Shown one piece after another: positions 1,894 to 60,764 of a stretch of 64,000 bases of DNA; the first letter of the stretch is position 1; the number at the start of each line of letters is the position of its first letter. The DNA comes from Malacoraja senta (Eukaryota). A program made the position numbers and the translations under genes. The notes beneath the pieces are model-generated. The model saw only the letters and a program-made list of their open reading frames with translations, was not told where the DNA came from and did no database searches. The stretch covers positions 4,962,001 to 5,026,000 of the forward strand of contig CM075995.1 in NCBI GenBank assembly GCA_038087875.1. The letters are read 5' to 3'.

Positions 1894-1921
1894 CTGAAGA
1901 AGGGTCTCGACCTGAAACGTC
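1894..1921 (+). ncRNA. Minimal hammerhead ribozyme-like motif in a Penelope-derived tail (EEPD1 intron, sense)
   Basis: CTGAAGA-A-GGGTCTCGACCT-GAAA-CG-TC: core CUGANGA/GAAA/UH, stem II hairpin, palindromic ACGT stem III. Confidence 0.6.
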
Positions 1922-2014
1922 ACCCATTCCTTCTCTCCAGAGATGCTGCCTGTGCCATTGAGTTACTCCAGCTTTTTATGTCTATCTTCCTTCTAAACCT
2001 TTCTTGTCTACATA

Positions 2015-3093
2015 AGGGCCTGTCCCACTTGGCCGTCATTTGCGCGCCATTTATGCGACCTCCAAAAATTTGGTCGTCGCGTTGTGACGCATGGGTAGCG
2101 CGGGATGGGTGCATGGAGAGGCATGGAGGAGTATGGAGTTGCGCGCGGTATCGCGCGCCGCTCCAGGATTTCGTGCTGCACAAAATCTTCGCGCGCCACT
2201 GTCGTGGCGTATCACTTACGCACGCGGACGTACAGCGGTCGCACGCTGATGTCCTGACCTCGTACGTGTAGTGCATGGTGTCGCATGATTACATCACCGT
2301 GCGTAACCATGCGCCGATGCCCATACGCAGTCGGCCCGCCTTTTACGCGTCATGGATATAAGCGCGCGCAATTTTAAAATTTGCACAGTTTCGTAAAGAA
2401 AACTACGTGGTGAACACCAAAATCCACGAAACCGGAAAGTGCAAAAGTGAATTGATGCTTCACTTGCAATGACTGCTTGGGTCCCTGGATTGTGGGTAAG
2501 GAAGAGGTTAAGAAGACAAATGTTGTATCTCCTACAGCTGGATGAACGAATGACATGAGAAGGGGTGCAGTTGGTAGAAATGGAAGAGCAAACCAGATAA
2601 GTGATACAAAATGCTGGAGTAACTCAGCGGGAACGGCAGCATCTCTGGAGAGAAGCAATGGGTGACGTTTTGGGTCGAGGCCCTTCTTCAGACTGAAGAA
2701 GAGTCTCGACTCGAAACATCATCCATTCCTCCAGAGATGCTGCCTGTCCCTCCGAGTTACTCCTGCATTTTGTGTCCATCTTCAATTTAAACCAGCATCT
2801 GCAGTTCCTTCCTACAGATTAATTTGGTCTGCAGCTTGCTACTTTTCATTCACCTCTTTTTTTGAATAGGTGCATTACATCTGTAGTTTTCCAATTGCTA
2901 GCACCACTCAAGAAACTGGAACATTTTAGAAAATCACCATAAATATCATAAACTGGGTAAATATCATAAACTGGGTATTCAAATGACGTCACGCGCGCCA
3001 GATGGCTGTGCTGGCGCATGAAGACGCGTGATGAAGCGCGCGACAGTCACTACCGGCCTGTCGCGTAAATGACGGGCAAGTGGGACAGGCCTT
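2015..3093. mobile_element. PIF/Harbinger-like MITE with nested Penelope fragments
   Basis: TIRs agggcctgtcccacttggccgtcatttgcgcg / cgcgtaaatgacgggcaagtgggacaggcctt; CpG-rich interior; Penelope-type sequence at ~2420-2815. Confidence 0.75.
2603..2815. mobile_element. Palindromic Penelope-tail element with two head-to-head hammerhead-like motifs
   Basis: Arms mirror around cttcttcag-a-ctgaagaag (centre 2692). Confidence 0.75.
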
Positions 3094-3289
3094 GTACAGT
3101 CCAAGTTTTTATTTTAATGCTGTTATAGCACCTGCCTCAAGTACCATCTCTGGCAGTCTATTCCATGTAGAACATAGAACAGTACAGCACAAGAACAGGC
3201 CCATCGGCTCATAAGAACAGGCCCTTTGTCTGAACTTGATCTCACCGATCATTTTACAAATAGCTGTCAAAAATGTTGTGTAGTTTCTG

Positions 3290-3872
3290 TTTAGTTTAGA
3301 GATACAGCACGGAAACAGGCCCTTTGGCCCACTGAGTCTGCACCAACCAGCGAACCCCGCACGTTAACACCATCCTAACCACACTAGGGACAATTTACAC
3401 TTATACCAAGCCAATTAACCTACTAACCTGATCGTCTTTGGAGTGTGGGAGGAAACCGAAGATCTCAGAGAACAGCCCTATCGGCTCATAAGAACAGGTC
3501 CTTTGTCTGAACTTGATCTCATCGACCATTTTAAAAATGGCTGTCAAAAATGTAGTGGTTTTTTTAGTCTAGAGATGCAGCGTGAAAACAGGCCCTTCAG
3601 CCCACTGAGTCCACGCCGACCAACGATCACTGCACACTAACACTATCCCACACACACTAGGAACATTTTGTTATAGTTTACCAAAGCCATTTAACCCGAC
3701 AAACCTGTATGTCTTTGGAATTAATGTGCGAGGAAACTGGAGATCCCAGAGAAAACCCACGCAGATCACGGCGAGAACGTAAAACTCCGTATTGGCAGCA
3801 CCCGTAGTCAGGATCGAACCCGGGTCCCTGGCGCAGTAAGCAGCAACTCTACCGCTGTGTCACCGTGTCGCC
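3290..3872 (-). mobile_element. Two HE1-type SINE copies within a local tandem duplication
   Basis: SINE tail and V-domain seen twice, each preceded by the same ~90-nt flank (..cggctcataagaacagg.cctttgtctgaacttgatctca..). Confidence 0.8.
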
Positions 3873-4703: not shown

Positions 4704-5347
4704 AGACTATACCAGCAATCAAAGAACCACACAGCACAGAAGGAGGCCATTTGGTCCATTGTGCCTCACCTAGCTCAATGAAAGAAAACCAATTTCCTCC
4801 CTATGCCCTCCAAAATGCTATCTCTCTTTGACCATATACACAATTCCCTTTTTGACAGTCCCTCTTGAAGCTGCTTCCGGCGAGCTTTGATAGTGTGTTC
4901 CAGATTTAAAAAACCCTTTACTGTGTTTTTTCCCTCATAACACTCCTAGTTCATTTTTCAACCACCGGTAACTTGAGTATCTGCCAGTGAAACAGCTTTG
5001 TTTCTACTGTAAGAAAATCATTCATGGTTGAGAACACTTCTGTCAAACATTCTTTCAATCTTGGGAGTAGAAACGAGGAACTGCAGAGGCTGGTTTATGA
5101 AAACCGACACAAAGTGTTGGAGTAACTCAGCAGATCAGATCAGCATCTATGGGGAACGTGGATAGGGGACATTTCGGGTGGGGACTCGCTGAATTGTTCC
5201 AGCATTTTGTGCCGTCCTTTCAACCTTCTTTGCCCTCAGAGTGTGCCCCAGTTTTCTAGTCCCACCACATAACGGAATCGTTCATCCCTGGCACTATTCC
5301 AGTAAATCTCCTTCCAACTATATAATTTAGTTCTCTTTCATTTTCAG

Positions 5348-5542
5348 GTGAAAAGGATGTTGTCATTTTGGGAGACTTCAGTCTATCGCCGGACGCAAAT
5401 GATTTTGACTACTTACGGAAAGAGAAGTTTCTTCACTGTGTCCCAGCAAATACCTACACCAACATCAGCACTAAAATCCCTCAAGGCTCAAAGTCGACAG
5501 ACAACATCTGGATTAGTCGCACCCTCAAGAAGACATATTCAG
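5348..5542 (+). CDS. EEPD1: EEPD1 penultimate coding exon (EEP domain)
   Basis: ttttcag|GT GAA AAG ... TCA G|gtacat; 195 nt, phase 1-1. Translates EKDVVILGDFSLSPDANDFDYLRKEKFLHCVPANTYTNISTKIPQGSKSTDNIWISRTLKKTYS, with the EEP-type GDF and DNIW motifs. Confidence 0.95.
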
Positions 5543-5552
5543 GTACATTGCA

Positions 5553-5872
5553 TTCCCTTGCATCCCCTCTCTCTCCATCCCTCCCCCACCCTAGCCATCC
5601 TGCTAGTTTCACTGTTTGTATCCACATGTTATCACCTTTCCGCAGCCAACAATGGACCCTTGTGCGCTCCACCTTTCCTTGATCATCTGGCTGGCTTTGA
5701 TTTGTTCTTTTCACACCTTTCATTCTTTGTTCTTTGCACCTTTTCATGACCTTGGTTTCCCTCTCCCCTGACTCTCAGTCTGAAGAAGGGACTCGACCTG
5801 AAACGTCACCTATTCCTTTTCCCCTGAGATGCTGCCTGACCCGTTGAGTTACCCTGGAATTTTGTGTCCATA
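5553..5872 (+). mobile_element. Penelope-like 3' tail with hammerhead-like motif (5780-5807)
   Basis: Pyrimidine-rich tail homologous to the sequence after the GIY-YIG stop in the 36.3 kb and 52.6 kb copies, then ctgaagaagggactcgacctgaaacgtc and gagatgctgcctgacccgttgagttac. Confidence 0.75.
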
Positions 5873-6269
5873 TTCAGGTTCAATGCAGCCAGATCTGGAG
5901 AGATCATTTCGACCCACGCAAAGTTACAACTTGTGCCACATTTTAAAATCTGTACAATTTGTATATTAGACTCTGGTGAGATTATATTGCCCTTTTCCGG
6001 TCAGTTTGCTAGGGGTACTGTGACAGAATGCTACTAAGTGTTAATTAGTAACGGGCTCAGCACCAAACCCTGAGACACACCACTAATCACAGAATAAAGG
6101 AACAATACAATAAGTTATAGAAAACAAACAATCCTGACTGATGGAACATTTGGCTTACAGATCATTCTCAGGAAATGTACCCTTAGATAACCCAGAGACT
6201 GTTTGTATTGGGGCTGGAATTTATGTGTTTTTAACTTTTGACAAGTATTCAATTTTATGTTAAGCTTGT

Positions 6270-6400
6270 GTGAGAAAGAACTGCAGATGCTGGATAAAAT
6301 CAAAGGTAGACAAAAAATGCTAGAGTAAGTCAGCGGGTGAGGCAGCATCTATGGAGGGAAGGAATGGGTGACATTTTGGGTCGAGACCCTTCTTCAGACT
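6270..6400 (-). mobile_element. Penelope-tail fragment with degenerate hammerhead-like motif
   Basis: gaactgcagatgctgg..gcagcatct..gggtcgagacccttcttcagact. Confidence 0.7.
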
Positions 6401-6502
6401 GATTTAAGCTTGTCTGTCTGCAAATAAGAAGTCGTTGTTCCTTTTCTCTCCTTTCGGTTTCTTTCTAAACCTATGTCCCTTTTTTCCCCCTTCTGCCACC
6501 AG

Positions 6503-6702
6503 GTCATTGGTCTGTTGTGAGGGAAGGTCTCACCAACCCCTGGATTCCTGACGGTTGGTCATGGGGCGGAGTTGCCTCTGAACATTGCCCGCTGTGGGCA
6601 GAGCTCTACGTAGAGAGAGACTTGGGTAGGAAAGTGCCATTTGGCAATGGCAGTGCTGTGACTGTCGAGCAAGCAGACGGAAGCACCAAGGAAGAGCGGT
6701 GA
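6503..6702 (+). CDS. EEPD1: EEPD1 last coding exon
   Basis: Polypyrimidine tract then ccag|GT CAT TGG. Translates HWSVVREGLTNPWIPDGWSWGGVASEHCPLWAELYVERDLGRKVPFGNGSAVTVEQADGSTKEER*, the characteristic EEPD1 C-terminus (REGLTNPWIPD.WSWGGVASEHCP). Confidence 0.96.
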
Positions 6703-8790: not shown

Positions 8791-11134
8791 ATAAATTCTT
8801 TCTCATCTCCTTTCTAAAGGCATGTCCTTTGAGACAATAGACAATAGACAATAGGTGCAGGAGTAGGCCATTCAGCCCTTCGATCCAGCACCGTCATTCA
8901 ATGTGATCATGGCTGATCATCCCCAACCAGTACCCCGTTCCTGCCTTCTCCCCATATCCCCTGACTCCGCTATTTTTAAGAGCCCTATCTAGCTCTCTCT
9001 TGAAAGCATCCAGAGAACCTGCCTCCACCGCCTTCTGAGGCAGAGAATTCCACAGAGGCTATGAGCTCTGGTCTAAAACTCTCCCACTGGTAGAAACATC
9101 CTCTCCGTATTCACTCTTTCCAGGCCTAAGAACAAAATGTCCATCCCTAGTCTTACGTACTCTGCCATCAACAACTTATTACAATTCAGCAAGCTGTTCA
9201 AAGGTTCATTAGTGATAGGAACAGAATTAGGCCATTCGGCCCATCAAGTCCACTCCGCCATTCAATCATGGTTGATCTATCTCTCCCTCCAAATCCCATT
9301 CTCCTGCCTTCTCCCCATAAATCCTGACACCCTTTATTACCATTCCTTCTCCCCAGAGATGCTGCCTGGCCCGCTGAGCTACTCCAACATTTTGTGTCTA
9401 CCCTTTATGTACCAAGGTACAGAGAGATTATTTTTTGTTGCATCCAGTCAGCAAAGTACTTCAATACATAAGTACAATTGTAGATTAAGTACAAAGTGTG
9501 TAGAAATAGTCCGCTAACACAATGTACAACAGTCGCCAGGTTTTGCCGCCATTTTCAATGTCTAAGTTGTTTTAGGTGCAGCTGGCCATAAAGGCCTGTT
9601 GCCGTGGCGACATTGTAGGGTCGGCCTGGCCAAGCGACGTTGTAGGCATCCTCTGTTGCTACTGCTGAGCAGAGCCATGTGTCTATCCAAACGTCAGGCA
9701 GAGTCGCTGCTTTGGATGTCTGTGTGATATCTACTTGCGGATCGTGGGTTGCGGTGTGGCCATGAGGCCACAGATGAAAACAACCATCTGGGTAAGTTTC
9801 TTGAGGACCCTGCGTGTCATGTATTACGTCTCCACAGCTGCTGATACAGCGCCAGACACAGGGTTCAATCCTGGCTTCAGGTGCTGTCTGTGTGCAGTTT
9901 GTACGTTCTTCCTGTGACCACTTTGGTCTCCTCCAGGTGTTCCAGTTTCCTCCCACATCCCAAAGACATGCAGTCACAGTTTAGTTTATTGTCACGTGTA
10001 CGGCGCTACAGTGAAAAGCTTTTGTTGTGCACTAACCAGTCAGCAGAAAGACAATATATGGTTATATTTGAGCCAGTGTATAGATATTGTACAAGATTAG
10101 GGAATAACCTTTACAGGTTTGTATGTTAATTGGCCTCTGCAAATTGCTCCTAGTGTGTAGGGAGGGGATGCGAAAGTGGGATAACAGAACAAGTATGAAC
10201 GGGCGATCGGTATGGACTCGGTGGGCTGAAGGGCCTGTTTCCATGCTGTACATCAAATCTCCAAAATATCGGATTTAAGACATTTTAATAGTTGGTGCTT
10301 GTTTTCTGATTGTTAAGCTGACTTGACAGTGCATCTTAACATTGTGCTTGGGTGTGATTTGATATATAACTGGTCACTTCTCAACTTCTTATTTCCAACA
10401 GAGTCTTTTGAGATCCTAGAATATTACAGCATTTGGTGACTGTTTAGTCTAAACCGTCAAAAAGTCAAATTTCTGAAAGAGCATTGTTGTTCCATTTGTC
10501 TCTGCATGGTGTCTATTTTAAGGAAAAGGAGGTAAATATTTGAAAGCTAGGTATTTCAAATTTGATAGATCTTCCATTCATCTGCATTTTTGGTGACGTT
10601 TCTGTGATGAATGGCGCTCTTCAAACCTTTTATTTTAATTAAGTTTGGCTGAAGGGTCCATGAATTAAACATGAAGCTAAGTGGTTTTAAGTAAACCGTG
10701 GGAATTAATAAAAAAATGTTCATGGTAGGATTAGGCAGAAGCAGAGAGGAGCATTGTGAGCATCTAACGGCCAACTAAACCTGTTTAAAAAAAAAATTTG
10801 TATAGATAACCTAGATCCAGAATTTCAATGGTCAGACAACTGTTGGAGCAGGTGAGGAATAAGGTCAGAAATGGCAGCTCGGGACTAACCAGAATATATT
10901 GACAATGAAATGTTGCAAGAAGGAAAATGAGAGATCAAGTAAATAACGCTTAAAAAAGTACTGAGCAAAGGAAGAAGGCAAAGACATGGGTGGTGTTAAA
11001 GGAGCTAAGTTTGGTGGATTTAACACTAATCTTGTATAGTCATTGCACAAGCTGACAGGATGTTTAATTAGTAAACCAAATTAGTAGAACTTAAATTGGA
11101 GACAGATGATCAAACTGACACATACACAAAGTCA

Positions 11135-12710: not shown

Positions 12711-13071
12711 ACCTAATGTTTAAGTCCTTTTCTCTTAACATATTTTGCTGGAGGAACCTTTAGAGCACAAATGTTAAGCAGTTCCATGTATAACATCATT
12801 TGTATAAATTCTGCTTATCTAACGATAAACACTGCTTCCTTTTACTAACAACAGGACCTTATCACTGTGTGAAAACAATGAACGTTGAGTTATTTCCTTA
12901 TCCAATGCTGCTGAAGTTCTTGTGCATTTTTCAAATCACCTGATGCTGCACTGAATATATATTTTTAGGAATTATAGTCACAATTATAGTTCTGAATATT
13001 ACCTAAGATAGACACAAAAAGCTGGAGTAACTCAGCAGGACAGGCAACATCTCTGGAGAGAAGGAATGGGT

Positions 13072-13099
13072 GACGTTTCGGGTCGAGACCTTTCTTCAG
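13072..13099 (-). ncRNA. Minimal hammerhead ribozyme-like motif
   Basis: Reverse complement reads CTGAAGA-AA-GGTCTCGACC-C-GAAACGTC, within a Penelope tail fragment (13010-13103). Confidence 0.55.
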
Positions 13100-13764
13100 A
13101 CTGGTCAACAGGATATTACCTGTAAAAAGTATTGAAGACACAGAGTTAACCTATTCGACATGTAGGTTAATGGCATTGCTTCTGGTAAAAGCGTATCTTT
13201 ACTTTGGCATTAACTTCCCACTTCCCATCACTACAAGCAGTGAGAGGACTGGCTTATAACAATGTTATCTTGCTAAACAGATTGTGAATACATTTCAGTT
13301 TCCTGTAACAGAACAAAATGTAATCATTATTCCAGTGGTTGCCCAAGCCATTGACTGGAATGTTGGCAAAGGCAGGTCTGAATCATTTGCAACTAAGTTC
13401 ATTAAGAAGTGCTGAGCCCATGATCCATCCACGCTTCCCTTGAAATCTCAACCTACACAGAAGCCTGACTTCAGCTTCTGTGCTTATCTCTGGCTCTTAA
13501 CCATCTGCCTATTAAAACCTCTCCCCCCTCGCCTATGTCCACCTATCACCAACCACACTTTGTCATGCCTCTCCCCTTTTCCAGCTCTCTTCTCCCTCCC
13601 CCCCTCCCCAACCCCACAATCAGCTTGAAGAAGAGTCTCGACCTAAAACGTCATCTATCCATGTTCTCCAGGGATGCTGCCTGACCTGCTGAGTTACACC
13701 AGCACCTTGTGTCCTTTTGTGTATTAACCAGCAACTGTAGTTGTTTGTTTCTACTCATTATACA

Positions 13765-19294: not shown

Positions 19295-19545
19295 ACAAAT
19301 CCTTCTCCTTGATGAAAACTGATGGAAGGTTCTCATTTAGCACCTCGCCTACATCTCCAGACTGCAAGCACTCATTCCTTCCGTTATCTGTGAACAGTTT
19401 AATTTAGTTTAGAGATACAGCGTGGAAACAGAGACACTTCCACTCACCGAGTCCGCGCCGACCAGCGATCCCTGCACATTAACACTATCCTACACACACT
19501 AGGGGACAATTTACAATTATACCAAAGCCAATTAACCTACAAACG

Positions 19546-22509: not shown

Positions 22510-23100
22510 ATAAGATCATAAGTGATAGGAGTAGAATAAGGCCATTCGGCCCAAGTCGACTCCGCCATTCAATCATGGTTGATCTATCTCTCCCTCCTAA
22601 CCCCATTCTCCTGCCTTCTCCTTATAATCTCTGACACCCATTCTAATTAAGAATCTATCTTTCTCTGCCTTAAATATATCCGCTGACTTGGCCTCCACAG
22701 CCTTCTGTGGCAAAGAATTCCACAGATTCACCACCCTCTGACTAAAGATATTCCTCCTCATCTCCTTCCTAAAAGAACGTCCTTTAATTTTGAGGCTATG
22801 ACCTCTAGTCCTAGACTCTCCCACTAATGGAAACATCCTCTCCACATCTATCCAAACCTTTCATTATTCTGTACGTTTCAATGAGGTCCCCCTTCATTCT
22901 TCTAAACTCCAGCGAATACCAGCCCAGTGCCGTCAAACGCTCATCATATGTTAACCTACTCATTCCTGGGATCATTCTTGTAAACCTCCTCGAGACCTTC
23001 TCCAGAGCCAGCACATCCTTCCTCAGACATGGTGCCTAAAATTGCTCACAATATTCCTAGTGTGGCCTGACCAGCGCCTTATAGAGCCTCAGCATTACAT
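22510..23100 (-). mobile_element. CR1 LINE 3' fragment
   Basis: LALEKVSRRFTRMIPG..SLEFRRMKGDLIETY..RTRGHSL..SQRVVNLWNSLP. Confidence 0.9.
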
Positions 23101-23380
23101 GTTTAAGAAAGAACTGCAGATGCTGGTAAATTGAAGGTAGACACAAAATGCTGGAGTAACTCAGCGGGACAGGCAGCACCTATGGAGAGAAGGAATAGGC
23201 GAAGTTTCGGGTCGAGCCCCTTCTTCAGACTGTACTACTGTCTCTGCCAACATTCTTTCCTTGTTCCACTCCCTCTCCTGACATCAGACTGAAGAAGGGT
23301 CTCGACCCAAAACGTCACCAATTCCTTCTCTCCATAGATGCTGCCTCACCCGCTGAGTTACTCCAGCATTTTGTGTCCAC
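23100..23380. mobile_element. Inverted (palindromic) Penelope-tail element with degenerate hammerhead-like motifs on both strands
   Basis: Left arm ends cccttcttcagactg (~23232); right arm begins cagactgaagaagggtctcgaccc (~23285); ctcagcattacat occurs on both flanks (TSD-like). Confidence 0.75.
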
Positions 23381-26122: not shown

Positions 26123-26994
26123 TACAGACAGCACCCGTGGTCGGAATCGAACTCATGTCTCCAGGGCTGCATGCGCTGTAAGGCAGCAACTCTACCGCTA
26201 TGCTGCCGTGCCGCCTATCTGAAGTAAATTGGAGCAATAAGTTCAAAACCCATGCACGGGTTGGTGTGACAGTTTACTGTTAGTTCACCCAGGTTTAATG
26301 GACCACTGCCTAGAAATTCTGAGGATTCAATTTAGCAACATGACTTAAGTAAGCAAGAAACTGAAGGAAGAGTGCAAGCATTAAATAGCGTTATACAGCA
26401 CAGAAACAGGCCCTTCGGCCCAACATGCCCATGCCGACCAAGATACCCCATCCACACTCAGGGTCCCGATCTGAAATGTCATCCATCCTTTATTCCAGGG
26501 ATGATGCTGCCTGACCCACTGAGTTACCCAAGCACTTTGTGTCTATCCCTCTCAACATTTTCTGTCCATGTAGCTGTTTAAATGTCTTTTAAATGCTATT
26601 ACAATACAATACAATACAATACAATACGGTTTTATTCGTCACATTGCACATAAAGTACAAGTGAAATGAATTTTATGGTATCAATTTCCTCCACTAGCTG
26701 CTCATTCCATACACCCACCACCATCGATGTGAAAATTGGTATCCCTCAGATTCCTATAAAATCTTTCCCCTCTCACCTGAAACCTATGTCCTATCGTTCT
26801 TGATTCCGCTATACTGCATCTACTCTATCTATTCCTCTCATGATTTTATACACCAATATAAGATCATCCCTCAGCCTCCTGCACTCGAAGGAATAAAGTC
26901 CTAGCATGCCCACCCTCTTCCCTCTGGCCCTCAAGTCCTGGCAACATCCTCGTAAATGGGGTTGTATCTGATGCTGAAAGTTTGGAAACTCTTT

Positions 26995-27248
26995 TTCGAG
27001 CTTCTGTTCGCATCCGTATATCCCTTCGTTATCACCTCTTCCACAGCCAACAATGGACCATTGTGAGCTCCACTTCTCCTTGGTCAATGGTGCCGGCTCT
27101 GATTTGTTCTGTATCTTGTCATACCTCGAGCTTCCCTCCCCCCTGACTCTCAACCTGAAGAAGGATTTCGACCTGAAACGTCTCCTATTCCATTTCTCGC
27201 GATGCGCTGCTGGACCCGCTGAGTTACTCCAGAATTTTGTGTCTATCT
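26995..27248 (+). mobile_element. Penelope 3' tail with hammerhead-like motif (27155-27182)
   Basis: ctgaagaaggatttcgacctgaaacgtc..gatgcgctgctggacccgctgagttactccag. Confidence 0.7.
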
Positions 27249-35318: not shown

Positions 35319-35889
35319 CGACCAGCGATCCCCATACACTAACACTATACTACACACTGTGGACAATTTACAATTCTACCAAAGCCAATTAGCCTACAAA
35401 CCTGTATGTTCTTGGAGTGTGGGAGGAAACCGGGGCTCCCGGAGAAAACCCATGCAGGTCACATGGAGAACGTGCAGACAGCACCCGAGGTCAGGATCAT
35501 ACCTGGGTCTCTGGTGCTGTAAGGCAGCAACTCTATAGCTGTGCCACCGTGCCACCCGTCAGAGTGTGTGAAGCTACCTATGAGAATACAGGTGAGTGCT
35601 GGGGATGTGAGAGACTGACCAGGGCAGCCCCGTTGTGCCTCACGCGGCACCTCGCCAACTCTGCCATCCCACACTGGAGGCGGGCTGGGAGCCGCACTAC
35701 ACGGTGGAGCCGGAGTACCTCACTTAGCAATAGAAGACATTCTCATTTCGTTAGCCGCATCACCTCCGGTACTGAACCTCAGCACCGGGGCGTCTCTGCC
35801 TTCCCATGGGCAGACACACAAGCAGCGGCTTTCTGCCAAGCCACACGGCAAAGTTGCACAGATGCATGGATGGATGGATGCCTCGTCCC

Positions 35890-36755
35890 CATTCCCTCTG
35901 TGTCCCAGAGTTCTGCTCTCGCTCCCCCTACTCTCCCAGATAAACCAAGGACGGAGTTCCTAGGTCCTCACTTTTCGCCCCCCAGCCTCTGCATCCAAAA
36001 CGTCATCCTTCTACATCTCCGGTACCTCCAACGTGATCCCACCACCGGTCACAGCTTTCCACCCCCACCCCTTTCCGCCTTCTCTCCGCACTCCTTGGAT
36101 CACACATCCCTTCCCACCCAAACCACCCCAGCGAGACCAAGCGAAGACTTGGAGACCATTTCCCCGAACATTTGCGCTCCGTCTGCCAATGTCTGAAGGA
36201 TCTCCAGTTGCTAACCATTTTAACACCTGTTCCCATTCCCACACTGAATCTCTGTCCTTGGCCTCCTCCATTGCCAGAGTGAGGCCATATGCAAACTGGA
36301 GGAACAGCTCCTCAAATTCCACTTGGGCGTCTTACAACCCAACGGAATGAACCTTGAATTTTCCAATTTTAGATAACAAACTTTAAATAACAACTACCCC
36401 TTCCCCTCTCCCATCTTCCCCCCAAACCCTCCCCTTCTTCCCCCAAACCCCCCTCCTAGACTCATAACTAATTCACCCCTCCCACTCTCCTTCCACCTAC
36501 ATTCCTTCCTCTAGTTTCACAATTTGCAACTCTTTAATCATTTTATCTCACACCTATCTTTTCATCTCTGTCCTTTATACCTCACCTGTACCTCACCTGT
36601 GTTGGTTTATCACCTGCCAGGCTTTGTCCTGGCACTTCTCTCTTCCAGCTTTCTTCCCCCTCCACAATAAGTCTGAAGAAGGGTCCCATCCCGAAAGGTC
36701 ACCTGTCCATGTTCTCCAGAGATACTGCCTGACCCACTGAGCTACTCCAGCATGT
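35890..36755 (+). mobile_element. Penelope-like element remnant: GIY-YIG endonuclease C-terminus plus 3' tail with hammerhead-like motif (36673-36700)
   Basis: ETKRRLGDHFPEHLRSVC..PVANHFNTCSHSH..LLHCQSEAICKLEEQLLKFHLGVLQPNGMNLEFSNFR*; tail ctgaagaagggtcccatcccgaaaggtc. Confidence 0.88.
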
Positions 36756-36904
36756 TAATAGGTGTAAAATGCGCTGATGGAGAAAGAAACAGTAATAACA
36801 TTTAAAGAGATCTAGACAGGTACTTGAATGAGCAGGAATTATTGTAGGCAAGTAGGATTAGTGTAGATTGGCATGATGGTCGGCATAGACGTCGAGGGCC
36901 GAAG

Positions 36905-37110
36905 GTGTAGGAAGGAACTGCAGATGCTTGTTTAAATCGAAGGAAGACACAAAATGTTGGAGTAACTCAGCGGGACATGCAGCATCTCTGGAGAGAAGGA
37001 ATGGGTGACGTTTCAGGTCGAGACCCTTCTTCAGACTTCACCCATTCCTTCTCTCCAGAGATGCTGCCTGTCCCGCTGAGTTACTCCAGCATTTTGTGTC
37101 TACCTTCGAG
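36905..37110. mobile_element. Palindromic Penelope-tail element with minus-strand hammerhead-like motif (37007-37034) in its loop
   Basis: Roughly 70-bp near-perfect inverted arms flanking gtttcaggtcgagacccttcttcagac. Confidence 0.8.
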
Positions 37111-38200: not shown

Positions 38201-38433
38201 CATGGCAAGAAGTAGTCATTCTTTTAAATTGCTGAGCCTTCAGGTATGAACATGTGGCTTATTTTCTCTCCAGTTCTCGGGATGACTGAGCATGTCCAGT
38301 ATAACCAAACATATACAGTACAATATTATCACTCAACCCCTGCTCTCCAGAGATGCTGACTCAGCCGCTGAGGTACTCCAGCATTTTTGTGTCTACCTTC
38401 GATTTAAACCAGCATCTGCAGTTCTTTCTTACA

Positions 38434-38866
<433 letters not shown>

Positions 38867-44190: not shown

Positions 44191-45040
44191 TGATAACCTC
44201 ACATTTATCCACATTATACTGCATCTGCCCTGCATCTGCCCACTCACCCAATCTGTCCAAATCACCCTGCATCGTCATAGCATCCTCTTCACAGTTCACA
44301 CTGCCACCCAGCCTTGTGTCATCTGCAAATTTGCTAATGTTACTTCTAATTCCTTCATCTAAATCATTAGTGTATATTGTGAATAGCTGCTATCCCAGCA
44401 CCGAGTCTTGCGGTACCCCACTAGTCACTCTGAAAGGGACCCGTTAATTCCTACTCTTTGTTTCCTCTCTGTCAACCAATTTTCTATCCATGTCAATACC
44501 CTACCCCCAATACCATGTGCTCTAATTTTACCCACTAATCTCCTGTGTGGGACCTTATCAAAGGCTTTCTGAAAGTCCAGGTACACTACATCCACTGGGT
44601 CTCCCTTGTCCATTTTACTTGTTACATCCTCAAAACATTCCAGAAGATTAGTCAAGCATGATTTCCCCTTCATAAATCCATGCTGACTTGGACCGATCCT
44701 GTTACAGCTATTCAAATGTGCCGCTATTACATCTTTGATAATCGACTCCATCATCGTCCCCACCACGGATGTCAGGCTAACTGGTCTATAATTCCCTGCT
44801 TTCTCTCTCCCTCCTTTCTTGAAAAGTGGGATAACACTAGCTACCCTCCAATCCACAGGAACTGATCCAGAATCTATAGAACATTGGAAAATGGTCACCA
44901 ATGTGTCCACGATTTGTAGAGCCACCTCCTTGAGAACCCTGGGATGCAGACCATCAGGCCCCGGGGATTTATCAGCCTTCAGTCACATCAGTCTACCCAA
45001 CACCATTTCCTGACTAATGTGAATTTCCTTCAGTTCCTCC
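44190..45040 (-). mobile_element. CR1 RT fragment
   Basis: DWRVASVIPLFKKG..NYRPVSLTS..DFQKAFDKVPH. Confidence 0.92.
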
Positions 45041-45524
45041 ATCATCACCTTGACCTCCAACTTTCCAGAGAAAACATCCAATTTATCCAACCTCTCCTTA
45101 TTTCCAATAATCTCTAATCGAGGAAGCATTCTGGTAAACCTCTTCTGCACCCTCCATTTCTTTCCTGTAATAGGCTGACCAGGACTGCACAAAATACTCC
45201 AAATGTGGAGTAACCAAAGTGTTATAAAACTATAACACAACTTCCAGAATTTTATGCACAAACTTCTTCACCTTTTTTATTCATCGGGGTCTCTGCTGGT
45301 GTAGTCTTTATAATTTAATGTGCAGTGGATTTCAACAATATCTAGGTTATCTGAGAGAAGACAAGCTGGCTTTAGGGCATTGGGTGTTCGCAGTCTGTGT
45401 TTTGTATTTGGTAGTGATCCATCTGGAAGACACTAGACCGCAAACAGACCAAGTTGCTGCTAAATGTTGACCATAACCATGTAAACATCAGGGTTGTGGG
45501 TAACACATCATGGGGGTCATTTAC

Positions 45525-45898
45525 GTGTAGGAAGGAACTGCAGATGCTGGTTCAAACCAAAGACAGACACAAAAAGCTGGAGTAACTCAGCGGGACAGGC
45601 AGCATCTCTGGAGAGAAGGAATGGGTGACGTTTCGGGTCGAGACCCTTCTTCAGACTGGTTAGGGATAAGAGAAACGAGAGATATAGACGATGATGTGGA
45701 GAGATAAAGAACAATGAATGAAAGATATGCAAACAAGTAATGATGACAAAGGAAACAGACCATTGTTAGCTGTTTGTTAGGTGAAAACGAGAAGCTAGTG
45801 CGACTTGGGTGGGGGAGGGATAGAGGGAGAGGGAATGCCGGGGCTATCTGAAGTGAGAGAAATCAATATTCATACCACTGGGCTGTAAGCTTCCCAAT
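45525..45898 (-). mobile_element. Penelope 3' end (last GIY-YIG codons plus tail)
   Basis: Reverse complement LGSLQPSGMNIDFSHFR*, then tail with hammerhead motif and gagatgctgcctgtcccgctgagttactccagc. Confidence 0.85.
45627..45654 (-). ncRNA. Best-preserved minimal hammerhead ribozyme-like motif
   Basis: Reverse complement: agt CTGAAGA A GGGTCTCGACCC GAAA CG TC acc. Confidence 0.65.
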
Positions 45899-46809
45899 TT
45901 ATATTGTCTACTATCAGTGGGTGACTGATTCTGATGAGTAATATTAATGCACTATAAACTCTTACCCGGTTGGTAAAAGATCACGTCAAGTATCGGTGCT
46001 GGCTCGAACGGCCGAATGGCCTCCTCCTGCACCTATTTTCTATGTATCAAGTAGCGGTGGAAGTCTATCCATGTCTTTATTATCCATGAGAACATGTATG
46101 GATTGTCAGAAAGGGAATTGCTTATCCCATTTTAACATGTGAAAAGATTTGCATATTAGCATGCAAATCTTTAATCATCCCATCTTGTTTCATAAAGCAA
46201 TTATTTTTGTGATTAACATCTTCCAATGCTAGGTAGATTTAGGCAGACTGGTGTAGATTTAAATAATGAGCTACAGGCAATAAGGGAATGTGTGTGGAAG
46301 CCTGTGCTGATGAACTGAGGATTATTTTCATTATCTTCAGTATATAAGCAGAACTGTGGAAAATATAATTGAAGCATACTCCCTGGAGCCCCGTCCTTGA
46401 ACAGTTCAATCCAAAGTAATCAGTTCTTGGCCACCACCATTGTACCCTTGGTTTTCAATTGAATACTATTAATCAGGTTAATAACACCCTGACCACTGTA
46501 TACTGTATTAATGCTCAGACTGTTTTAGCAATAACAAGGAGAGCACAAGGAACATCTCTGTCCCATCAGGGTCCATTTCGTTAATGTGCTTAAAGAATGT
46601 TTTGGAGAAATGTGGTGCCACAAGTGGCCAAGTCAATGGATATTTTGAAGGCAGAGCTGGATATATTCTTGGTAAGTCAGGTGTCAGGGATTATGGGGAA
46701 GGCAGGAGAATGGGGTTAGGAGGGAGAGATAGATCAGCCATGATTGAATGGCAGAGTAGACTTGATAGGCCAAAATAGCCTAATTCTGCTCCTATCACAT
46801 GAATTTATA

Positions 46810-52105: not shown

Positions 52106-52372
52106 AATGAAGTAACTCTGACCATAACCCCACACAAATCCAGTAGGTCAACTGTCACCACGTTTTAGAATAAATATTTCAGATGTATATACACTGTTAC
52201 TGAATAAGGTCTTTAATACCTTAATACTCTCAGTTTTGTACAGGATGCCAATACAAAAATATCATGGTAGAGGGCATAGCTTCAAGGTGAGGGGCAGTTT
52301 AAAGGAGATGTGCGAGTCAAGGATTTTTGGTGGTGGGTGCCTGGAACGCATGACCTTTGGGGGGGACAGACA

Positions 52373-53020
52373 TTAAAAGCTGGAGTAACTCAGTGGGACA
52401 GTCGAGACCCTTCTTCAGACTGAAAGTCACGGGAAAGGGAAACGAGAGATGTAGACGATGATGTAGAGAGATAAAGAACAATGAATGAAAGATATGCAAT
52501 AAAGTAACAATGATAAAGGAAACAGGCCATTGTTGGCTGTTTGGTCGGTGAGATCAAATAGCTGGTGTGACTTGGGTCGGGGGAGGAATGGAGAGAAAGG
52601 GAACGCAGGGGTTACTTGAAGTTAGAGAAATCATTTTCATACCATTGGGTGTAAGCTGCCCAAGCGAAATGTGAGATGCTGTTCCTCCAATTTGCGTTTA
52701 GCCTCACTCTGACAATGGAGGAGGCCTAGGACAGAAAGGTCAGTGTGGGAATGGGAAGGGGAATGAAAGTGTTTAGCAACCGGGAGATCAAGTAGGTCCA
52801 GGTGGGCTGAGCGAAGGTGTTCAGCGAAATGATCGCCAAGTCTACAATTGGTCTCGCCAATGTATCAGAGTCCACATCTAGAACAACGGATAGAGTCGAT
52901 GAGGTTGGAGGAGGTGCAAGTGAACCTCTGCTAACCTGAAAGGACTGTCGGGGTCCCTGGACAGAATCAAGGGAGGAGGTATAGGGACAGGTGTTACATC
53001 CCCTGTGGTTGCAGGAGATT
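52373..53020 (-). mobile_element. Penelope-like element remnant with GIY-YIG endonuclease
   Basis: Reverse complement QRFTCTSSNLIDSIRCSRCGL*YIGETNCRLGDHFAEHLR..PVAKHF..LLHCQSEAKRKLEEQHL.FRLG; tail carries a partial hammerhead motif at ~52401-52418. Confidence 0.9.
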
Positions 53021-53396
53021 GCCTTTGGGGGGGGGGGGGGGATCTGGAGGGAGTGGGGGCTGTGGTGGTGGCAGTTATGGTATTGGTTTTGATGCAGCCT
53101 TTAGATAGACACGTGGATATGAAGGAATATGAATCATGAGCTGGCAGATGAGATTAATTTTTCTTGGCAACATGTTCGGCATGGACATTGTGGGCTTTGC
53201 TGTACTTTGCTGCACTGGTTTATGTGTGTGTGGGCATTTAGACTAACCTTCAATTGTGAACCACTCAACTTAAATCAAAGGAGGAAGGGTTTGGTGATTG
53301 TTAAGTTTACAATCCTGGATTAAATTTTTGATCTTGCTGCTAGTTTATGAATCCGAGATGGCAAAACCTGAGCTGAGAAAGAGCTCAGGGCATTAG

Positions 53397-54012: not shown

Positions 54013-54161
54013 TCCAGTTCATGAGACATTTGGGTTTTGCAATAAAACTATGACCATTACATGATCAACACATCTACTGTTTACATCTGTAATCACTGCA
54101 CAGTATAAATACCACTCGTGTGAACAGCACAATGTAAAAGGAGAAAGTTAATTCAGCTGAC

Positions 54162-56800: not shown

Positions 56801-57949
56801 TGCCACACAGGCTGTGGAGGCCAAGTCAATGGATATTTTTAAGGCAAAGATAGTTAGATTCTTGATTAGTTCTGGTGTCAGTGATTATAGGGAGAAGGCC
56901 GGAGAATGGAGTTAAGAGGGATGCCATGATTGAATGGCGGAGTAGACTTGATGGGCCAAATGGTCTAATTCTGCTCCTATCACTAATAAACTTATGAACA
57001 TATGGGTAGACTGGAATGCCTGAGTTGAGGTAAAAAAATCTGAGCAATAATTATTTGATTAAATGGCAAAGCAGTCTCGAGCGGCTGAGTGGCCTGTTCA
57101 TGCTCCTTATTCACATGCTTGTTTATATGTTGACCACTAAACGTTGGCCAATGTTGCTATGTACTGACAGCTGCACGATCAGAGCTGGCCTCTGCCAGTT
57201 GACACACTAAACCAGGACTCTATGTGGCCTCTGCATGTACATGATCCCATTGCAATTTTTTTTTAAATGAGCAGGGTAGTTATACTGGCCTATAATTATA
57301 CCTGAACCAATATCACCAAAACAGATGTCTCAAAAATGTCATAATCAAGGACGAGTCGCACCCTTCCCACTCCCTCTTCTCCCCTCTCCCTTCAGGCAAA
57401 AGGTATAGAAGTGTGAAAACGCACACCATCAGTTTCAGGGACAGTTTTTTCCCAGCTGTTAGCAGGCAACTGAATCTTCCTACCACAACCAGAGAGCAGT
57501 GCTGAACTACTATCCACCTCATTGGTGACCCTCGGACTATCCTTGATCGGACTTTGCTGGCTCTGCCTTGCACTAAACGTTATTCCCTTATCATGTATCT
57601 ATACACTGTAAATGGATCGATTGTAATCATGTATTGTCTTTCCGCTGACTGGTTAGCAGGCAACAAAAGCTTTTCACTGTACCTCGGTACAAGTGACAAT
57701 AAACTAAACTGAAAAATTAAACTAAATGGAAGAACGGTCTCGACCCAAAACGTCACCCATTCCTTCTCTCCGGAGATGCTGCATGTCCCGCTGAGTTACC
57801 CCAGCACTTTGAGTCTATAAACTGAAAACATACAGTATATGTGGGACTCGCTGGCTATAAGATCTCTTCAGAAGATATGAGATCATGAAACTCGATATAT
57901 TTCATAAAGGCTTGTCGTACATTGATTACAAAACCATTGCGTTTCCACA

Positions 57950-58765
57950 GAGAAACAGTTGGGATGTTATGCTACAGCTGTACAAGACATAAGCAATGAT
58001 GGAAGGCCACGTTTAGAGTATTGTGTTCAGTTTTCGTCACCCGGTTTTGGGGAAGATATTGTTAAGCTGGAAAAAGTGCAGAGAAGATTATTCACGAGGA
58101 TGTCACCAGGACTTGAAGGCAAAAAGGGAGAAGTTGAGCAGGTTAGGATTTTATTCCTTGGAGTGCAGAAGGATGACGGATGATCTTACAGAGGTGTGTA
58201 AGATCATGAGGGGAATAGACGGGGTAAATGCACAGAGCCTTTTACCCAGAGTAGCAGAATCAAGAACCAGAGGACATACTGTAGGTTTAAGGTGCTGGTG
58301 GAAAAATTTAATAGGAACCTGAAGGGCAACCTTTTCACAGAAAGGGTTGTGGGCATATAGAATGAACTGCCAGAGGAGGTAGTTGAGGCAGGTAATATCA
58401 CAACATTTAAAATATCTGTAGATTGGCTATTGCATGCTAGCCAATTATAGTGCTTGTTGGTAGTAGCTCCGCCTAGTACGTGCTTTATAGTATCAAGAGC
58501 TCACCTACGCTAGCTAGTAGATGTAGCAGCTCGGAGCTGTAATGTATTGCAGATCCTATACTGTAAGTGATTTAATAAACGTGTTGTATCTTAATGTGTG
58601 TTCGGGTCACATCATTACAATATCTTTGGACAGGTACATGGATAGAAAAGGTTTAGAGGGATATTTGCCAAACACAGGCAGGCGGGACTAGTGTAGATGG
58701 GGCATTTTGGTCGGCATGGGCAAGTTGGGCCAAAGGGCCTGTTTCCATCTTGTATAACTCTATGA
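57950..58765 (+). mobile_element. CR1 3' fragment interrupted by a solo LTR
   Basis: RPRLEYCVQFSSP..LGFYSLECRRMTDDLTEVCKIMRG. Confidence 0.88.
58417..58619 (+). mobile_element. Solo LTR (203 bp)
   Basis: TGTA..TACA termini; perfect 5-bp TSD atatc (58412-58416, 58620-58624); internal AATAAA ~58574; the flanking CR1 joins seamlessly. Confidence 0.88.
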
Positions 58766-59849
58766 CTGTAGGGCTGTACATACCAATTTGGTTGCCTTTT
58801 CCGTGGCATGTAGCAGAACGTCCTTATGTCATAGGCATAGAGTCTTACAGCGTGGAAGCAGGCCCTTTGGCCCAACTTGCCCACACCAACCAACATGTCC
58901 CAGCAACATCAGTCCCACCTGCCTGCATTTGGCCCATGTCCCTCCAAATCTGTCCTATCCATTATCCTGTCTAACTGTTTCTTAAACATTGGGATAGTCC
59001 CTGCCTCAACTACCTCCTCTGGCAGCTGGTTCCATAGACCCACCACCCCATTTGTGTGAAAACGTTACCCCTCAGATTCCTGTTAAAACTTCCCCCCTCA
59101 CCTTGAACCTTTGTGAGAAAAGATAGATGGGGCATAGTGGTCGGCGTGGGTACGTTAGGCCAAAAGGCCCATTTTCCATGCTGTACATCTCTGACTCTAA
59201 ACAGGTATTCTACCATCACTATTTAACCTCCACAGAAGTGTCCTTCCACCATTGCTTATTAAGTTAAACATAGCCCTCCATTCCCTTCTGGTTCATGTGT
59301 TTATCCATCTTTCCCTTGAATCCAGTTCTTCTCAGTCCTCAATTTAATGGCCTTCTGAGTAAGAATGCTACCCTAAATTCCCCAATGGATTTCGTTGGTT
59401 CTGGTCTTGCCATGACTAAAATCATAAAGGTTTTCTTGTCTCTTCCTCCATAATGTTATTTACCTCCCTCCTTCTGCTGGACAGCCTGATTGATCAGCTG
59501 GACGCAAGCACAACTGGCTAAATTTGTTAAAAAGCAACCTGTTCCCGTCATACAGCTGACCAGGAGATATTCCGCTGGTAGAATGTATGTGTAACCTAAA
59601 CCAGGGCACTATTGGCATTTGGGCTATGTGAATTGCAGGATTTGCAGACCTTGCTCATTTATAAAACCCACACATCAGCACAGCTCTTGAAAAAGAAACT
59701 TGTCTTTAAAACATTCAAAGATACTGCCCGACACCACAGGTCGGCCTGGGCAAGTTGGGCTGAAGGGCCTGTTTCCACACTGTATCACTCTATGACCACA
59801 AAATTGAACCAAAAATCATTGCTCGTTGGGGTTCAGTTACCTTTAAAGT

Positions 59850-60640
59850 TTAGATATACAGCATGGAAACAGGCCCTTTGGCCCGCCAAGTCCATGACTA
59901 TCCCTGATTCCCCCCCCCCCTTCACACTAGTCATCTCACCGCACACTCGGGGCAATTTTACAGAGGCCAATTAACCTACAAACCCGCACATCTTTGGGAT
60001 GTGGGAGGAAACTGGAGCACCTGGAGGAAACCCGCACGGTCACAGGGGGAACCTGCAAACTCAGTACCGACAGCACCAAGGTCAGGATCGAACCCAGGTC
60101 TCTGGTATTATGAGGCAGATCTACAGGCTTAAGAAGTGACGATTCTCAAAGGGTTAAAAGTCCCTTTGAGTGATAATGTTTTTATTCAGTGTCATACAAC
60201 CTGCTCACACCAACCAAGATGTTCCATCTAAGCTACTCCCATGGCCCATATCCTATTAAACCTTTCCTATCCGTGTATCTTTCTAAATGTTCTTTAAGTG
60301 TTGTTATTGTACCCGCATCAACTACTTTCTCTGACAACTCGTTCCATGTTATTCAGTGAGAGATTTGTTCTCAGGAGGTGAACATCTCTTTAGACTTTAG
60401 AGATACAGCGCGGAAACAGGACCTTCGTCCCACCAAGTCCACGCCGACCAGGGATTACCTTATACATTAGCACTATCGTATACACTAAGGACAATTTACA
60501 AAAGCCAATTAACCTACAAACCTGTACATCTTTGGAGTGAGGGAGAAAACCGGAGCACCCACAAAAAACCCACGCAGTCACGGAGAGAACATACAAACTG
60601 CGTGCAGACAGCACCCGTAGTCAGGATCGAACCTGGCGCT
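59850..60640 (-). mobile_element. Two HE1-type SINEs (59850-60120, 60390-60640)
   Basis: Tail and V-domain in reverse complement. Confidence 0.85.
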
Positions 60641-60764
60641 TTAAGGCTCGACCTGAAACGTCGCCTATTGCTTTTCTCCAGTGACACTGCCTGACCCATT
60701 GAGTTACTCCAGCTTTTTATCTATCTTCGGTTTAACCCAGCATCTGCAGTTCCTTCCTACACAT

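What the first reader, a model, noticed from the sequence alone, without database searches (positions are those of the whole stretch)
1894..60662. Dispersed family of minimal hammerhead-ribozyme-like motifs carried by Penelope 3' tails
Seen: the motif CTGAAGA-A-[GGGTCTCGACCC hairpin]-GAAA-CG-TC recurs about a dozen times. Plus strand: 1894, 2693, 5780, 13626, 23289, 27155, 36673, partial at 57737 and 60645. Minus strand: 2664, 6370, 13072, 23200, 37007, 45627, partial at 52401. At 36673, 45627 and 52401 it lies a few hundred nt downstream of a recognisable Penelope GIY-YIG C-terminus, tying it to that element. Established: Penelope-like elements carry minimal type I hammerheads whose short palindromic stem III (here ACGT) cleaves as a dimer. 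Inference: the genome is seeded at high density with such ribozymes, many in short non-coding copies that could be a retrozyme-like non-autonomous family. Caveats: there is an extra A after the CUGANGA core, and stem I shows only about 2 obvious pairs (gt/ac), so activity is uncertain.
Basis: partly seen in the sequence, partly recalled or inferred. Interest (0 to 1): 0.75.

Follow-up and report, generated by a model that had tools for sequence, protein, structure and literature searches.

The report
Retrotransposon ends carrying minimal hammerhead ribozymes
The repeated motif is the already described miniature self-cutting RNA motif at the end of Penelope-type jumping genes, here in a skate or ray, and most of the many short copies look like decaying leftovers of insertion rather than a working ribozyme family.

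Summary
All 16 coordinates are real; the repeat has 26 arms at 20 loci (~7% of the window). It is the terminal repeat (pLTR) of a Neptune-type Penelope-like element (PLE) in a batoid fish: GIY-YIG/CCHH endonuclease ends lie 189-296 nt upstream in 3 copies, 3' ends fall at +90 or +130 (the PLE 'tail'), and head-to-head pairs share one target-site duplication with one tail per pair. The motif fits the published minimal type I hammerhead consensus (Cervera & de la Peña 2014), in which the 'extra A' is a conserved feature, not a defect. Non-CpG core positions differ in 1 of 130 cells versus 79 of 714 in the flank, but G12 is lost by CpG decay in 4 of 13 copies: selection acted on source elements, not on these copies. 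Stem I is only 2 bp, no covariation, hammerhead fold not predicted, no read ends at the cut site; cleavage untested. A separate retrozyme family is not supported. One lead: genome-wide, many copies start 2-3 nt before the core, at an initiator-like TCAGTCT, with an apparent extra G, as if copied from capped, uncleaved transcripts.

The parts
45525..45915 (-). Best-preserved 5'-truncated Neptune-type PLE copy: last endonuclease codons (stop ends 45844), 189-nt pyrimidine-rich 3' region, minimal hammerhead, tail to +130 (5' boundary approximate)
45625..45656 (-). Intact minimal type I hammerhead: stem I 2 bp, CUGAAGA, unpaired A, 4-bp stem II with tetraloop, GAAA, palindromic ACGU, predicted cut between 45627 and 45626
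   Evidence: consensus in PMC4209133 Fig S3
45653..45659 (-). Initiator-like YYANWYY (A at -3 = 45657), also a polypyrimidine/CAG acceptor-like site; genome-wide 5' loose ends at 45656-45658
   Evidence: function inferred
45525..45565 (-). 40-nt optional tail between the two preferred 3' ends (+90 and +130)
52365..53060 (-). PLE fragment: CX4CxxC linker (about 53013-52990), GIY-YIG/CCHH endonuclease (52930-52646, broken by frameshifts and a stop), 3' region, hammerhead with internal deletion
35870..36757 (+). Older PLE fragment (divergent subfamily): broken ORF end (stop ends 36376), 3' region, hammerhead at 36673 with intact core but broken palindrome
36904..37106 (.). Head-to-head pair, one insertion: - arm -3..+130 with intact hammerhead (C3 37034), + arm +27..~+92; 12-bp target-site duplication at 36892 and 37106
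23098..23380 (.). Head-to-head pair: - arm -4..+130 (C3 23228), + arm from about -50 to +89 (C3 23289, G12 lost); 13-bp duplication at 23088 and 23382
2600..2818 (.). Head-to-head pair joined at the CAG-T-CTG palindrome just before the core: - arm to ~+89 (C3 2691, G12 lost), + arm to +129 (C3 2693, palindrome broken)
1429..1574 (.). Head-to-head pair without a full hammerhead: - arm +49..+128, + arm +25..+90; duplication starting at 1415 and 1574
5066..5225 (.). Older head-to-head pair: - arm +11..+128, short + arm to about +96
63700..63830 (.). Head-to-head pair, - arm interrupted at +72, + arm degenerate with tail
1885..1988 (+). Solo short copy from about -8 to +93, intact hammerhead (C3 1894), imperfect flanking duplication
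5545..5869 (+). Copy with ~235 nt of PLE 3' region and hammerhead (C3 5780); 11-bp duplication at 5534 and 5869 that copies the end and donor of an EEPD1 exon
6267..6403 (-). Solo short copy -6..+130 (C3 6397, G12 lost), 9-bp duplication
13005..13105 (-). Solo short copy -6..~+93 (C3 13099, core intact, stem II 3/4), 9-bp duplication
13490..13754 (+). Divergent-subfamily copy with upstream 3' region, C3 and G12 both lost, tail present (5' boundary approximate)
26985..27248 (+). Copy with ~170 nt upstream region, hammerhead at 27155 with core intact, stem I broken (5' boundary approximate)
9340..9401 (+). Short copy starting about +30, i.e. at or just after the predicted cut site; 9-bp duplication
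26460..26548 (+). Short copy starting about +8
38338..38433 (+). Short copy starting about +35, with tail, next to a (CA)n microsatellite
57729..57817 (+). Short copy starting about +3, G12 lost; 11-bp duplication at 57705 and 57818
60645..60764 (+). Short copy starting about +12, with tail

Best explanation
The motif is the minimal type I hammerhead (min-HHR) of the pseudo-LTR of a Neptune-type Penelope-like retrotransposon that amplified in a skate/ray lineage. Shown here: PLE endonuclease upstream, two fixed 3' ends 40 nt apart, head-to-head pairs with one shared target-site duplication and one tail, core conserved across subfamilies, CpG decay in copies. Inferred from PLE literature: the element protein binds the pLTR RNA, nicks both target strands about 9-13 bp apart and starts reverse transcription internally at +90 or +130; one priming gives a solo copy, two primings give a head-to-head pair with one tailed arm; most cDNAs stop early, so the genome fills with 60-140-bp pLTR pieces. 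In source elements the hammerhead is kept by selection and most likely cleaves slowly after GUC only as an ACGU-paired dimer helped by the element protein, trimming tandem transcripts; uncleaved RNA is what gets integrated. The dispersed copies are mostly inert and mutate neutrally.
For: Endonuclease fragment P0001 is 62-68% identical (alignment) to skate and stingray proteins and 38% to a 752-aa RT+GIY-YIG protein; CCHH and CX4CxxC linker present, relatives have DKG and YIDD, the Neptune/Nematis signature per Craig et al.. 3' ends at +88..+95 or +128..+130 in the window and top loose ends at +90, +95 and +130 in three independent-library lays; 5 of 5 uninterrupted pairs have one tailed arm, and exact 12- and 13-bp duplications bracket two pairs, matching Craig et al. 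and Frangieh et al.. Motif equals the published consensus NNN CUGANGAH G..C GAAAN NUH. Non-CpG core 1 of 130 cells different vs 79 of 714 in the flank; base-matched draws expect 14.3, 0 of 20000 as low. G12 lost in 4 of 13 full copies and in 15-18% of laid sequence in 3 runs. Short copies pair with long ones on the tree (6397 with 23289; 1894 and 13099 with 45654; 5195 with 13625). In the anole PLE, cleavage needs the protein and is dispensable for insertion (PMC11167929).
Against: No cleavage was tested. Stem I has only 2 pairs, 80.8% of cells paired; no covariation beyond shuffles in 13 copies (346 and 339 of 500 shuffles as high). The hammerhead fold is not predicted for naked RNA: P(stem II) is 0.00-0.12 in 8 of 9 copies folded over -3..+130 (0.56 in one) because an alternative hairpin uses the same Gs, and the dimer conformation (-6.1 kcal/mol) is far above the dimer MFE (-22.9). 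No pile-up of RNA read ends at the cut site (table 6: none; fragmented polyA library, weak test). No full-length element or RT from this genome was seen; clade assignment rests on motifs, not on a tree with named references. The tree uses only 61 columns with modest support.
Confidence: 0.8

Rival explanations
1. The 93/133-nt unit is an independently transcribed non-autonomous element (retrozyme- or SINE-like): it carries its own start site at -3, the hammerhead and the RT-binding region, and is mobilised in trans by the PLE protein.
For: Sharp 5' ends at -2/-3 genome-wide and 7 of 19 window arms between -8 and -3 (binomial p 0.0008, post hoc; 0.003 counting one junction once); depth drops 14-24-fold just upstream of the core; head-to-tail joints of a 133-134-nt unit in 52-64 contigs per run; pLTRs alone can mobilise sequence in trans in Adineta (PMC3846280); Li et al. 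2026 derive animal retrozymes from PLE pLTRs.
Against: No tandem array in the window; copies keep both sides of the cut site, unlike cut-to-cut retrozyme monomers; hammerhead is minimal, not the canonical type of non-LTR retrozymes (PMC7229834); short and long copies intermix on the tree; part of the depth drop and the whole -4 pile reflect subfamily differences from the reference copy; tandem joints are a tiny share of ~280,000-320,000 laid contigs and their spacers are unknown.
Confidence: 0.15
2. The motif is catalytically silent in this lineage; its letters are conserved for another role (core promoter, splice acceptor or PLE-protein binding site) and it only works like a structural element.
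For: Weak stem I, alternative fold preferred; N7 and the extra A are as invariant as catalytic positions, as a contiguous protein- or promoter-binding word would be; 8 of 9 Xenopus dimers tested by Li et al. did not cleave; the site overlaps an initiator-like and an acceptor-like sequence.
Against: The GAAA block and U16.1-C17 lie 13-27 nt from the CUGA block and are also invariant at non-CpG sites while the stem II letters between them vary (11 of 117), which is the pattern of a hammerhead; PLE min-HHRs of Schistosoma, Drosophila and Anolis do cleave weakly or with protein help.
Confidence: 0.2
3. The dispersed copies are active, host-selected ribozymes that process pre-mRNAs such as EEPD1.
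For: Copies lie in EEPD1 introns (5780 sense, 6397 antisense); private changes are rarer in the core than the flank (1 vs 6.9 expected, p 0.008).
Against: G12 decays freely by CpG mutation; only 3 of 13 motifs intact; full motifs are 7 on + and 6 on -; if CpG sites mutate 6-10 times faster, 2.4-4 core changes are expected and 1 is unremarkable (p 0.09-0.31).
Confidence: 0.03

Closest known systems
Minimal type I hammerheads of metazoan PLEs (Cervera & de la Peña 2014, PMC4209133; Lünse et al. 2017, known here only from its citation and recall)
   Same: CUGANGA + one unpaired base, G10.1-C11.1, GAAA, 4-nt palindromic helix III (CGUC as in Takifugu, Xenopus, Petromyzon rows), NUH, position in the pLTR after the endonuclease, mostly dispersed single copies, nearby opposite-strand pairs.
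   Different: Stem I at the short extreme (2 bp, as in D. virilis and Culex; most rows have 3-5); stem II 4 bp; no chondrichthyan in their Fig S3 or Table S1.
PAc (Poseidon) of Anolis carolinensis (Frangieh et al. 2024, PMC11167929)
   Same: Two internal RT start sites giving an optional tail; hammerhead upstream of them; genomic copies span the uncut site; no RNA read ends at the cut.
   Different: Here the endonuclease has the CX4CxxC linker (Neptune/Nematis type); no ATG-led ORF begins in stem II; activity untested.
Penelope of Drosophila virilis (Schostak et al. 2008; Cervera 2014)
   Same: 2-bp helix I; an intron acceptor just 5' of the core (intron 416-491, C3 at 496) like the pyrimidine tract + CAG here; inverted 5' arms and one tail.
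   Different: D. virilis starts transcription 46 nt before its intron; here copy ends suggest a start at the core itself; no spliced joint was seen here.
Animal non-LTR retrozymes (Cervera & de la Peña 2020, PMC7229834; Li et al. 2026 preprint)
   Same: Type I hammerhead, short non-coding unit, PLE-pLTR relationship; Li et al. report retrozymes in their one chondrichthyan genome.
   Different: Retrozymes are 150-450-bp tandem repeats with canonical hammerheads that yield circular RNA; these are dispersed monomers and inverted pairs bounded by RT start sites.

Membership tests
PLE minimal type I hammerhead | Core CUGANGA ... GAAA ... NUH in type I order | tested here: met
   9 of 13 full copies have all 11 core letters; H17 = C in 13 of 13
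PLE minimal type I hammerhead | Unpaired base between 9 and 10.1 and G10.1-C11.1 pair | tested here: met
   A in 13 of 13; G-C in 7, G-U (CpG decay) in 5 of 13
PLE minimal type I hammerhead | Palindromic 15.1-16.1 segment allowing dimer helix III | tested here: met
   ACGU in 9 of 13, wobble-compatible AUGU in 1, broken in 3
PLE minimal type I hammerhead | Helix I and II supported by compensatory change | tested here: inconclusive
   Helix I 2 bp; 1 pair with a two-sided change; not above shuffles in 13 close copies
PLE minimal type I hammerhead | Self-cleavage (as dimer or protein-assisted) | not testable with these tools
   No read ends at the site in one polyA library, a weak test
Penelope-like element, Neptune clade | C-terminal GIY-YIG endonuclease with CCHH | tested here: met
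   P0001 itself has no Pfam hit but aligns to relatives with PF01541 and RVT_1
Penelope-like element, Neptune clade | CX2-5CxxC linker before the endonuclease | tested here: met
   Window ~53013-52990 (-) and 109 of 118 fetched proteins with the EN motif; shared with Nematis
Penelope-like element, Neptune clade | Placement in the Neptune clade on an RT tree with named references | not tested
   No RT in the window and no named reference elements at hand
Penelope-like element, Neptune clade | 30-40-nt tail on one end, inverted 5' arm, target-site duplication | tested here: met
Non-LTR retrozyme | Tandem units each with a complete hammerhead | tested here: not met
   0 of 20 loci in the window; genome-wide only rare head-to-tail joints with unknown spacer
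Non-LTR retrozyme | Canonical hammerhead with ~6-bp helix I and loop-loop contacts | tested here: not met
   2-bp helix I
Non-LTR retrozyme | Abundant monomer-length linear and circular RNA | not testable with these tools
   Needs northern blot or circRNA sequencing

The most novel reading that the evidence does not exclude
The short copies are 'strong-stop' run-off cDNAs: transcription starts at an initiator 2-3 nt before the hammerhead core, the PLE protein primes at +90/+130 in this 5' pLTR, and the RT runs off a capped, uncleaved 5' end, adding a G opposite the cap. This would map a vertebrate PLE start site onto the ribozyme, explain the 2-bp stem I, show in vivo that integration uses uncut RNA, and make the 93/133-nt unit a self-contained Pol II mini-element at very high copy number. 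Support: loose ends at -2 and -3 with unrelated AT-rich flanks whose first letter reads G on the element strand in 5 of 5 listed rows, and a -3 joint with one inserted G in 2 runs. Against: rows are consensus letters of related genomes, not counts; none of the window's copies starts G-AGU (solo copies start at -6 to -8; 2 of 3 have an unmatched G there); an acceptor site or the CAG-T-CTG fold-back could also make the boundary.
Probability: 0.4. Interest if true: 0.55.

Novelty: new member of a known kind. Interest (0 to 1): 0.3.

Why it matters
The ribozyme-in-Penelope link is established, so the motif itself is an expected find in a lineage (cartilaginous fish) that the original survey did not list. 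Its value is as material: one insertion per ~3 kb, with clean tails, one-tailed inverted pairs and a sharp 5' boundary, gives an unusually large natural record of how PLEs integrate and where they start transcription, both still open questions. If the cap-G reading holds, the unresolved role of PLE hammerheads (does cleavage matter for transposition in vivo?) becomes testable from genome sequence alone.

Tried and rejected
Rfam scan: 7 weak matches, none a hammerhead; Rfam models do not cover this minimal form, so this is no evidence against. No own genome held. Two exact-pattern scans of metagenome contigs: 0 hits each, so no outside copies for covariation. Pfam on the 95-aa fragment: 0 families. 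RNAalifold recovered 3 stem II pairs but a different pairing for the core and no covariation. The sigma-70 scan is irrelevant to a vertebrate. Earlier-findings look-ups returned nothing. Rejected: the extra A as a defect (published consensus feature); loose ends at 45658 (-4), 45614 and 45576 as true element ends (they follow subfamily or private differences from the reference copy); clustering of 5' ends at the cut site (5 arms start between +21 and +35, only one, 9340, at about +30; not among the 18 listed loose-end rows); a spliced form (none among the 15 of 631 joints and 12 of 432 filler rows shown). In one search the first core-vs-flank count (2 of 158 vs 216 of 1804) included edge-trimmed and over-run alignments; it was redone on the 13 of 24 arms spanning -3 to +84. 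Lünse et al. 2017 is not held.
Full report
Convention: offsets count hammerhead C3 as +1 (no zero); in the reference copy C3 = 45654 on the minus strand, so -3 = 45657, the predicted cut lies between 45627 and 45626, +90 = 45565 and +130 = 45525.

1. Observation. All 16 positions are real. A profile search finds 27 hits, which are 26 arms at 20 loci covering about 4.5 kb, 7% of the window, one locus per 3.2 kb. A strict descriptor finds 4 motifs versus 0.04 per shuffle in 200 shuffles. Rfam lists no hammerhead among 7 matches at E<=10. The host is a batoid fish by inference: the best protein relatives are from Leucoraja erinacea and Hypanus sabinus. The window includes the last two coding exons of EEPD1 (about 5348-5542 and 6511-6702).

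2. The carrier is a Penelope-like element. Three copies have endonuclease codons ending 189, 193 and 296 nt before the motif. The 95-aa fragment at 52930-52646, read with X at its stop, has no Pfam hit by itself but found 9 relatives among 78 candidates and aligns at 38% to a 752-aa protein with RVT_1 and GIY-YIG domains. It has the CCHH residues and, upstream in another frame, a CX4CxxC linker. Craig et al. (bioRxiv 10.1101/2021.04.23.441226, passages) give this linker as the mark of Neptune and Nematis; Li et al. found Neptune and Poseidon in vertebrates, hence 'Neptune-type'. No RT tree with named references was made.

3. Insertion anatomy. 3' ends fall at about +88..+95 or +128..+130 in the window. 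Laying public runs on 45490-45910 (15,721 RNA reads from X23; 278,948 and 320,651 contigs from X9 and X1; 0 from X22) gives top loose ends at +90, +95 and +130. Six loci are head-to-head pairs; in 5 of 5 uninterrupted pairs exactly one arm has the 40-nt tail, and exact 13- and 12-bp duplications bracket two of them, so each pair is one event. Solo copies have 9-11-bp duplications. This is the published PLE signature: a 30-40-bp tail usually on one end and an inverted 5' arm (PMC3846280 passages), explained by two internal RT start sites and extension of both strands in the anole element (PMC11167929, parts 1-2 of 4). That pairs arise by priming both nicked strands, one at each start site, is my inference.

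4. The motif. It reads U(-1)-A(+29) and G(-2)-C(+30) as stem I, CUGAAGA, one unpaired A, a 4-bp stem II with tetraloop, GAAA, CG, UC. No chondrichthyan appears in that supplement, and searches for Penelope with skate/shark, Leucoraja, or hammerhead with cartilaginous fish found no description; Li et al. (bioRxiv 10.64898/2026.07.22.740005, parts 1-3 of 5, supplements closed) do report retrozymes and PLEs in one chondrichthyan genome.

5. Selection. In the 13 of 24 aligned arms that span -3 to +84, non-CpG core positions differ in 1 of 130 cells, the non-CpG flank in 79 of 714, non-CpG stem II in 11 of 117; base-matched draws expect 14.3 and none of 20,000 was as low. But G12 sits in a CpG and is lost in 4 of 13 copies, and in 17.8%, 16.4% and 14.6% of laid sequence in three runs. 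If CpG sites mutate 6-10 times faster than others (a recalled range), only 2.4-4 post-insertion core changes are expected, so 1 is unremarkable. The best reading is purifying selection among several source subfamilies and neutral decay afterwards. Only 3 of 13 full motifs are intact. Against a working ribozyme: no covariation above shuffles, stem II probability 0.00-0.12 in 8 of 9 copies folded over -3..+130 because GGGU prefers the ACCC after the cut site, and the dimer conformation is about 17 kcal/mol above the dimer MFE. That fits the published weak or protein-dependent activity (review PMC6765202, passages) but equally a silent motif.

6. Retrozymes? Known animal retrozymes are tandem 150-450-bp repeats with canonical hammerheads that yield circles (PMC7229834, passages). 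None of the 20 loci is tandem; copies keep both sides of the cut site; on a 61-column tree of 21 arms short copies sit with long ones of the same subfamily (modest support). Genome-wide, head-to-tail joints of a 133-134-nt unit exist in 52-64 contigs per run with unknown spacer, so some tandem units may exist, but they are a tiny minority.

7. The open lead. 5' ends cluster just before the core: 7 of 19 arms ending between -8 and +60 end in -8..-3 (p 0.0008, post hoc), and -2, -3 and -4 are among the top loose ends in the runs; depth falls 14-24-fold there. The -4 pile and part of the depth drop are artefacts of subfamily divergence, but -2 and -3 are conserved positions with unrelated AT-rich flanks. 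In all 5 listed rows at -2/-3 the first loose letter is G on the element strand, and a joint ending at -3 carries one inserted G in 2 runs. An extra G marks reverse transcription of the cap in full-length L1 insertions (PMC11702581, passage). The site matches the initiator consensus YYANWYY (recalled) in 4 of 7 copies with upstream sequence. Hence the novel case: run-off cDNAs from capped, uncut transcripts. It was not found in the listings. Against: these are consensus letters from related genomes (1,517 further rows not shown), and window solo copies start at -6 to -8. Alternative: the 3' region may be a pLTR intron as in D. virilis (PMC2377424, passages; intron 416-491, C3 at 496): about 90% of laid sequence has CAG|GTA at the ORF stop (45847 T>C), a pyrimidine tract and CAG precede the core, and the joined frame stays open to +130; no spliced joint was among the rows shown. 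Fold-back at CAG-T-CTG explains the 2691/2693 junction only.

8. Verdict. Real, non-random, and a new member of a known kind: the minimal hammerhead of a Neptune-type PLE pLTR, multiplied as truncated insertions. It works like other PLE hammerheads by architecture and conservation; catalytic membership is untested. Interest 0.3; 0.55 if the capped run-off reading (probability about 0.4) is confirmed.

Noticed in passing
window 5534-5879 (+): A PLE copy inserted exactly at an EEPD1 exon-intron boundary; its 11-bp target-site duplication copies the exon end and GT donor, so the exon now has a donor followed by element sequence and the old donor lies 335 nt downstream.
   Followed up: partly
window 5348-5542 and ~6511-6702 (+): Last two coding exons of EEPD1 (first matches PDB EEPD1 chains at E 1.6e-26; second located with recalled motifs).
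   Followed up: partly
window 45844-45850 and 45655-45700 (-): Donor-like CAG|GTAR at the ORF stop (majority allele in reads) and pyrimidine tract + CAG just before the hammerhead: candidate ~190-nt pLTR intron; the joined frame is open through the tail.
   Followed up: partly
window 45599-45607, 45572-45579 and 45542-45549 (-): The segment at +48..+55 can pair either with +76..+83 or with a perfect complement at +106..+113 inside the tail; two alternative hairpins may underlie the two RT start sites. 88.5% of cells paired for the first, no compensatory change.
   Followed up: partly
window 45623-45646 (-): Alternative hairpin (GGGU with the ACCC after the cut site) predicted to outcompete stem II in the young subfamily: possible off-switch for the ribozyme.
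   Followed up: partly
window 2425-2600 (-): An older degenerate PLE linker fragment lies next to the 2600-2818 pair, consistent with insertion beside earlier PLE copies.
   Followed up: no
window ~30200-30450 (-): Pyrimidine-rich stretch resembling a PLE 3' region that runs into a (CT)/(GA) microsatellite; no hammerhead seen.
   Followed up: no
window 14692-19403 and 39454-40737 (-): Fragments of an L1/Tx1-like non-LTR element, including a 452-aa RT frame (PF00078, E 1e-41).
   Followed up: no
window 24919-25892, 31553-34348, 41975-44982: Many CR1-like LINE fragments (family label recalled from motifs such as LGGSV and [11 protein letters not shown]), including an esterase-like ORF1 at 42654-43853 (-).
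   Followed up: no
window 63542-63699: Palindromic, short-repeat-rich stretch that interrupts the 63700-63830 pair; possibly a MITE-like insertion (weak miRNA-like hairpin matches).
   Followed up: no
window 28246-28548 and 29147-29572 (-): Frames resembling gag/protease of a gypsy-type LTR element (label recalled, not tested).
   Followed up: no
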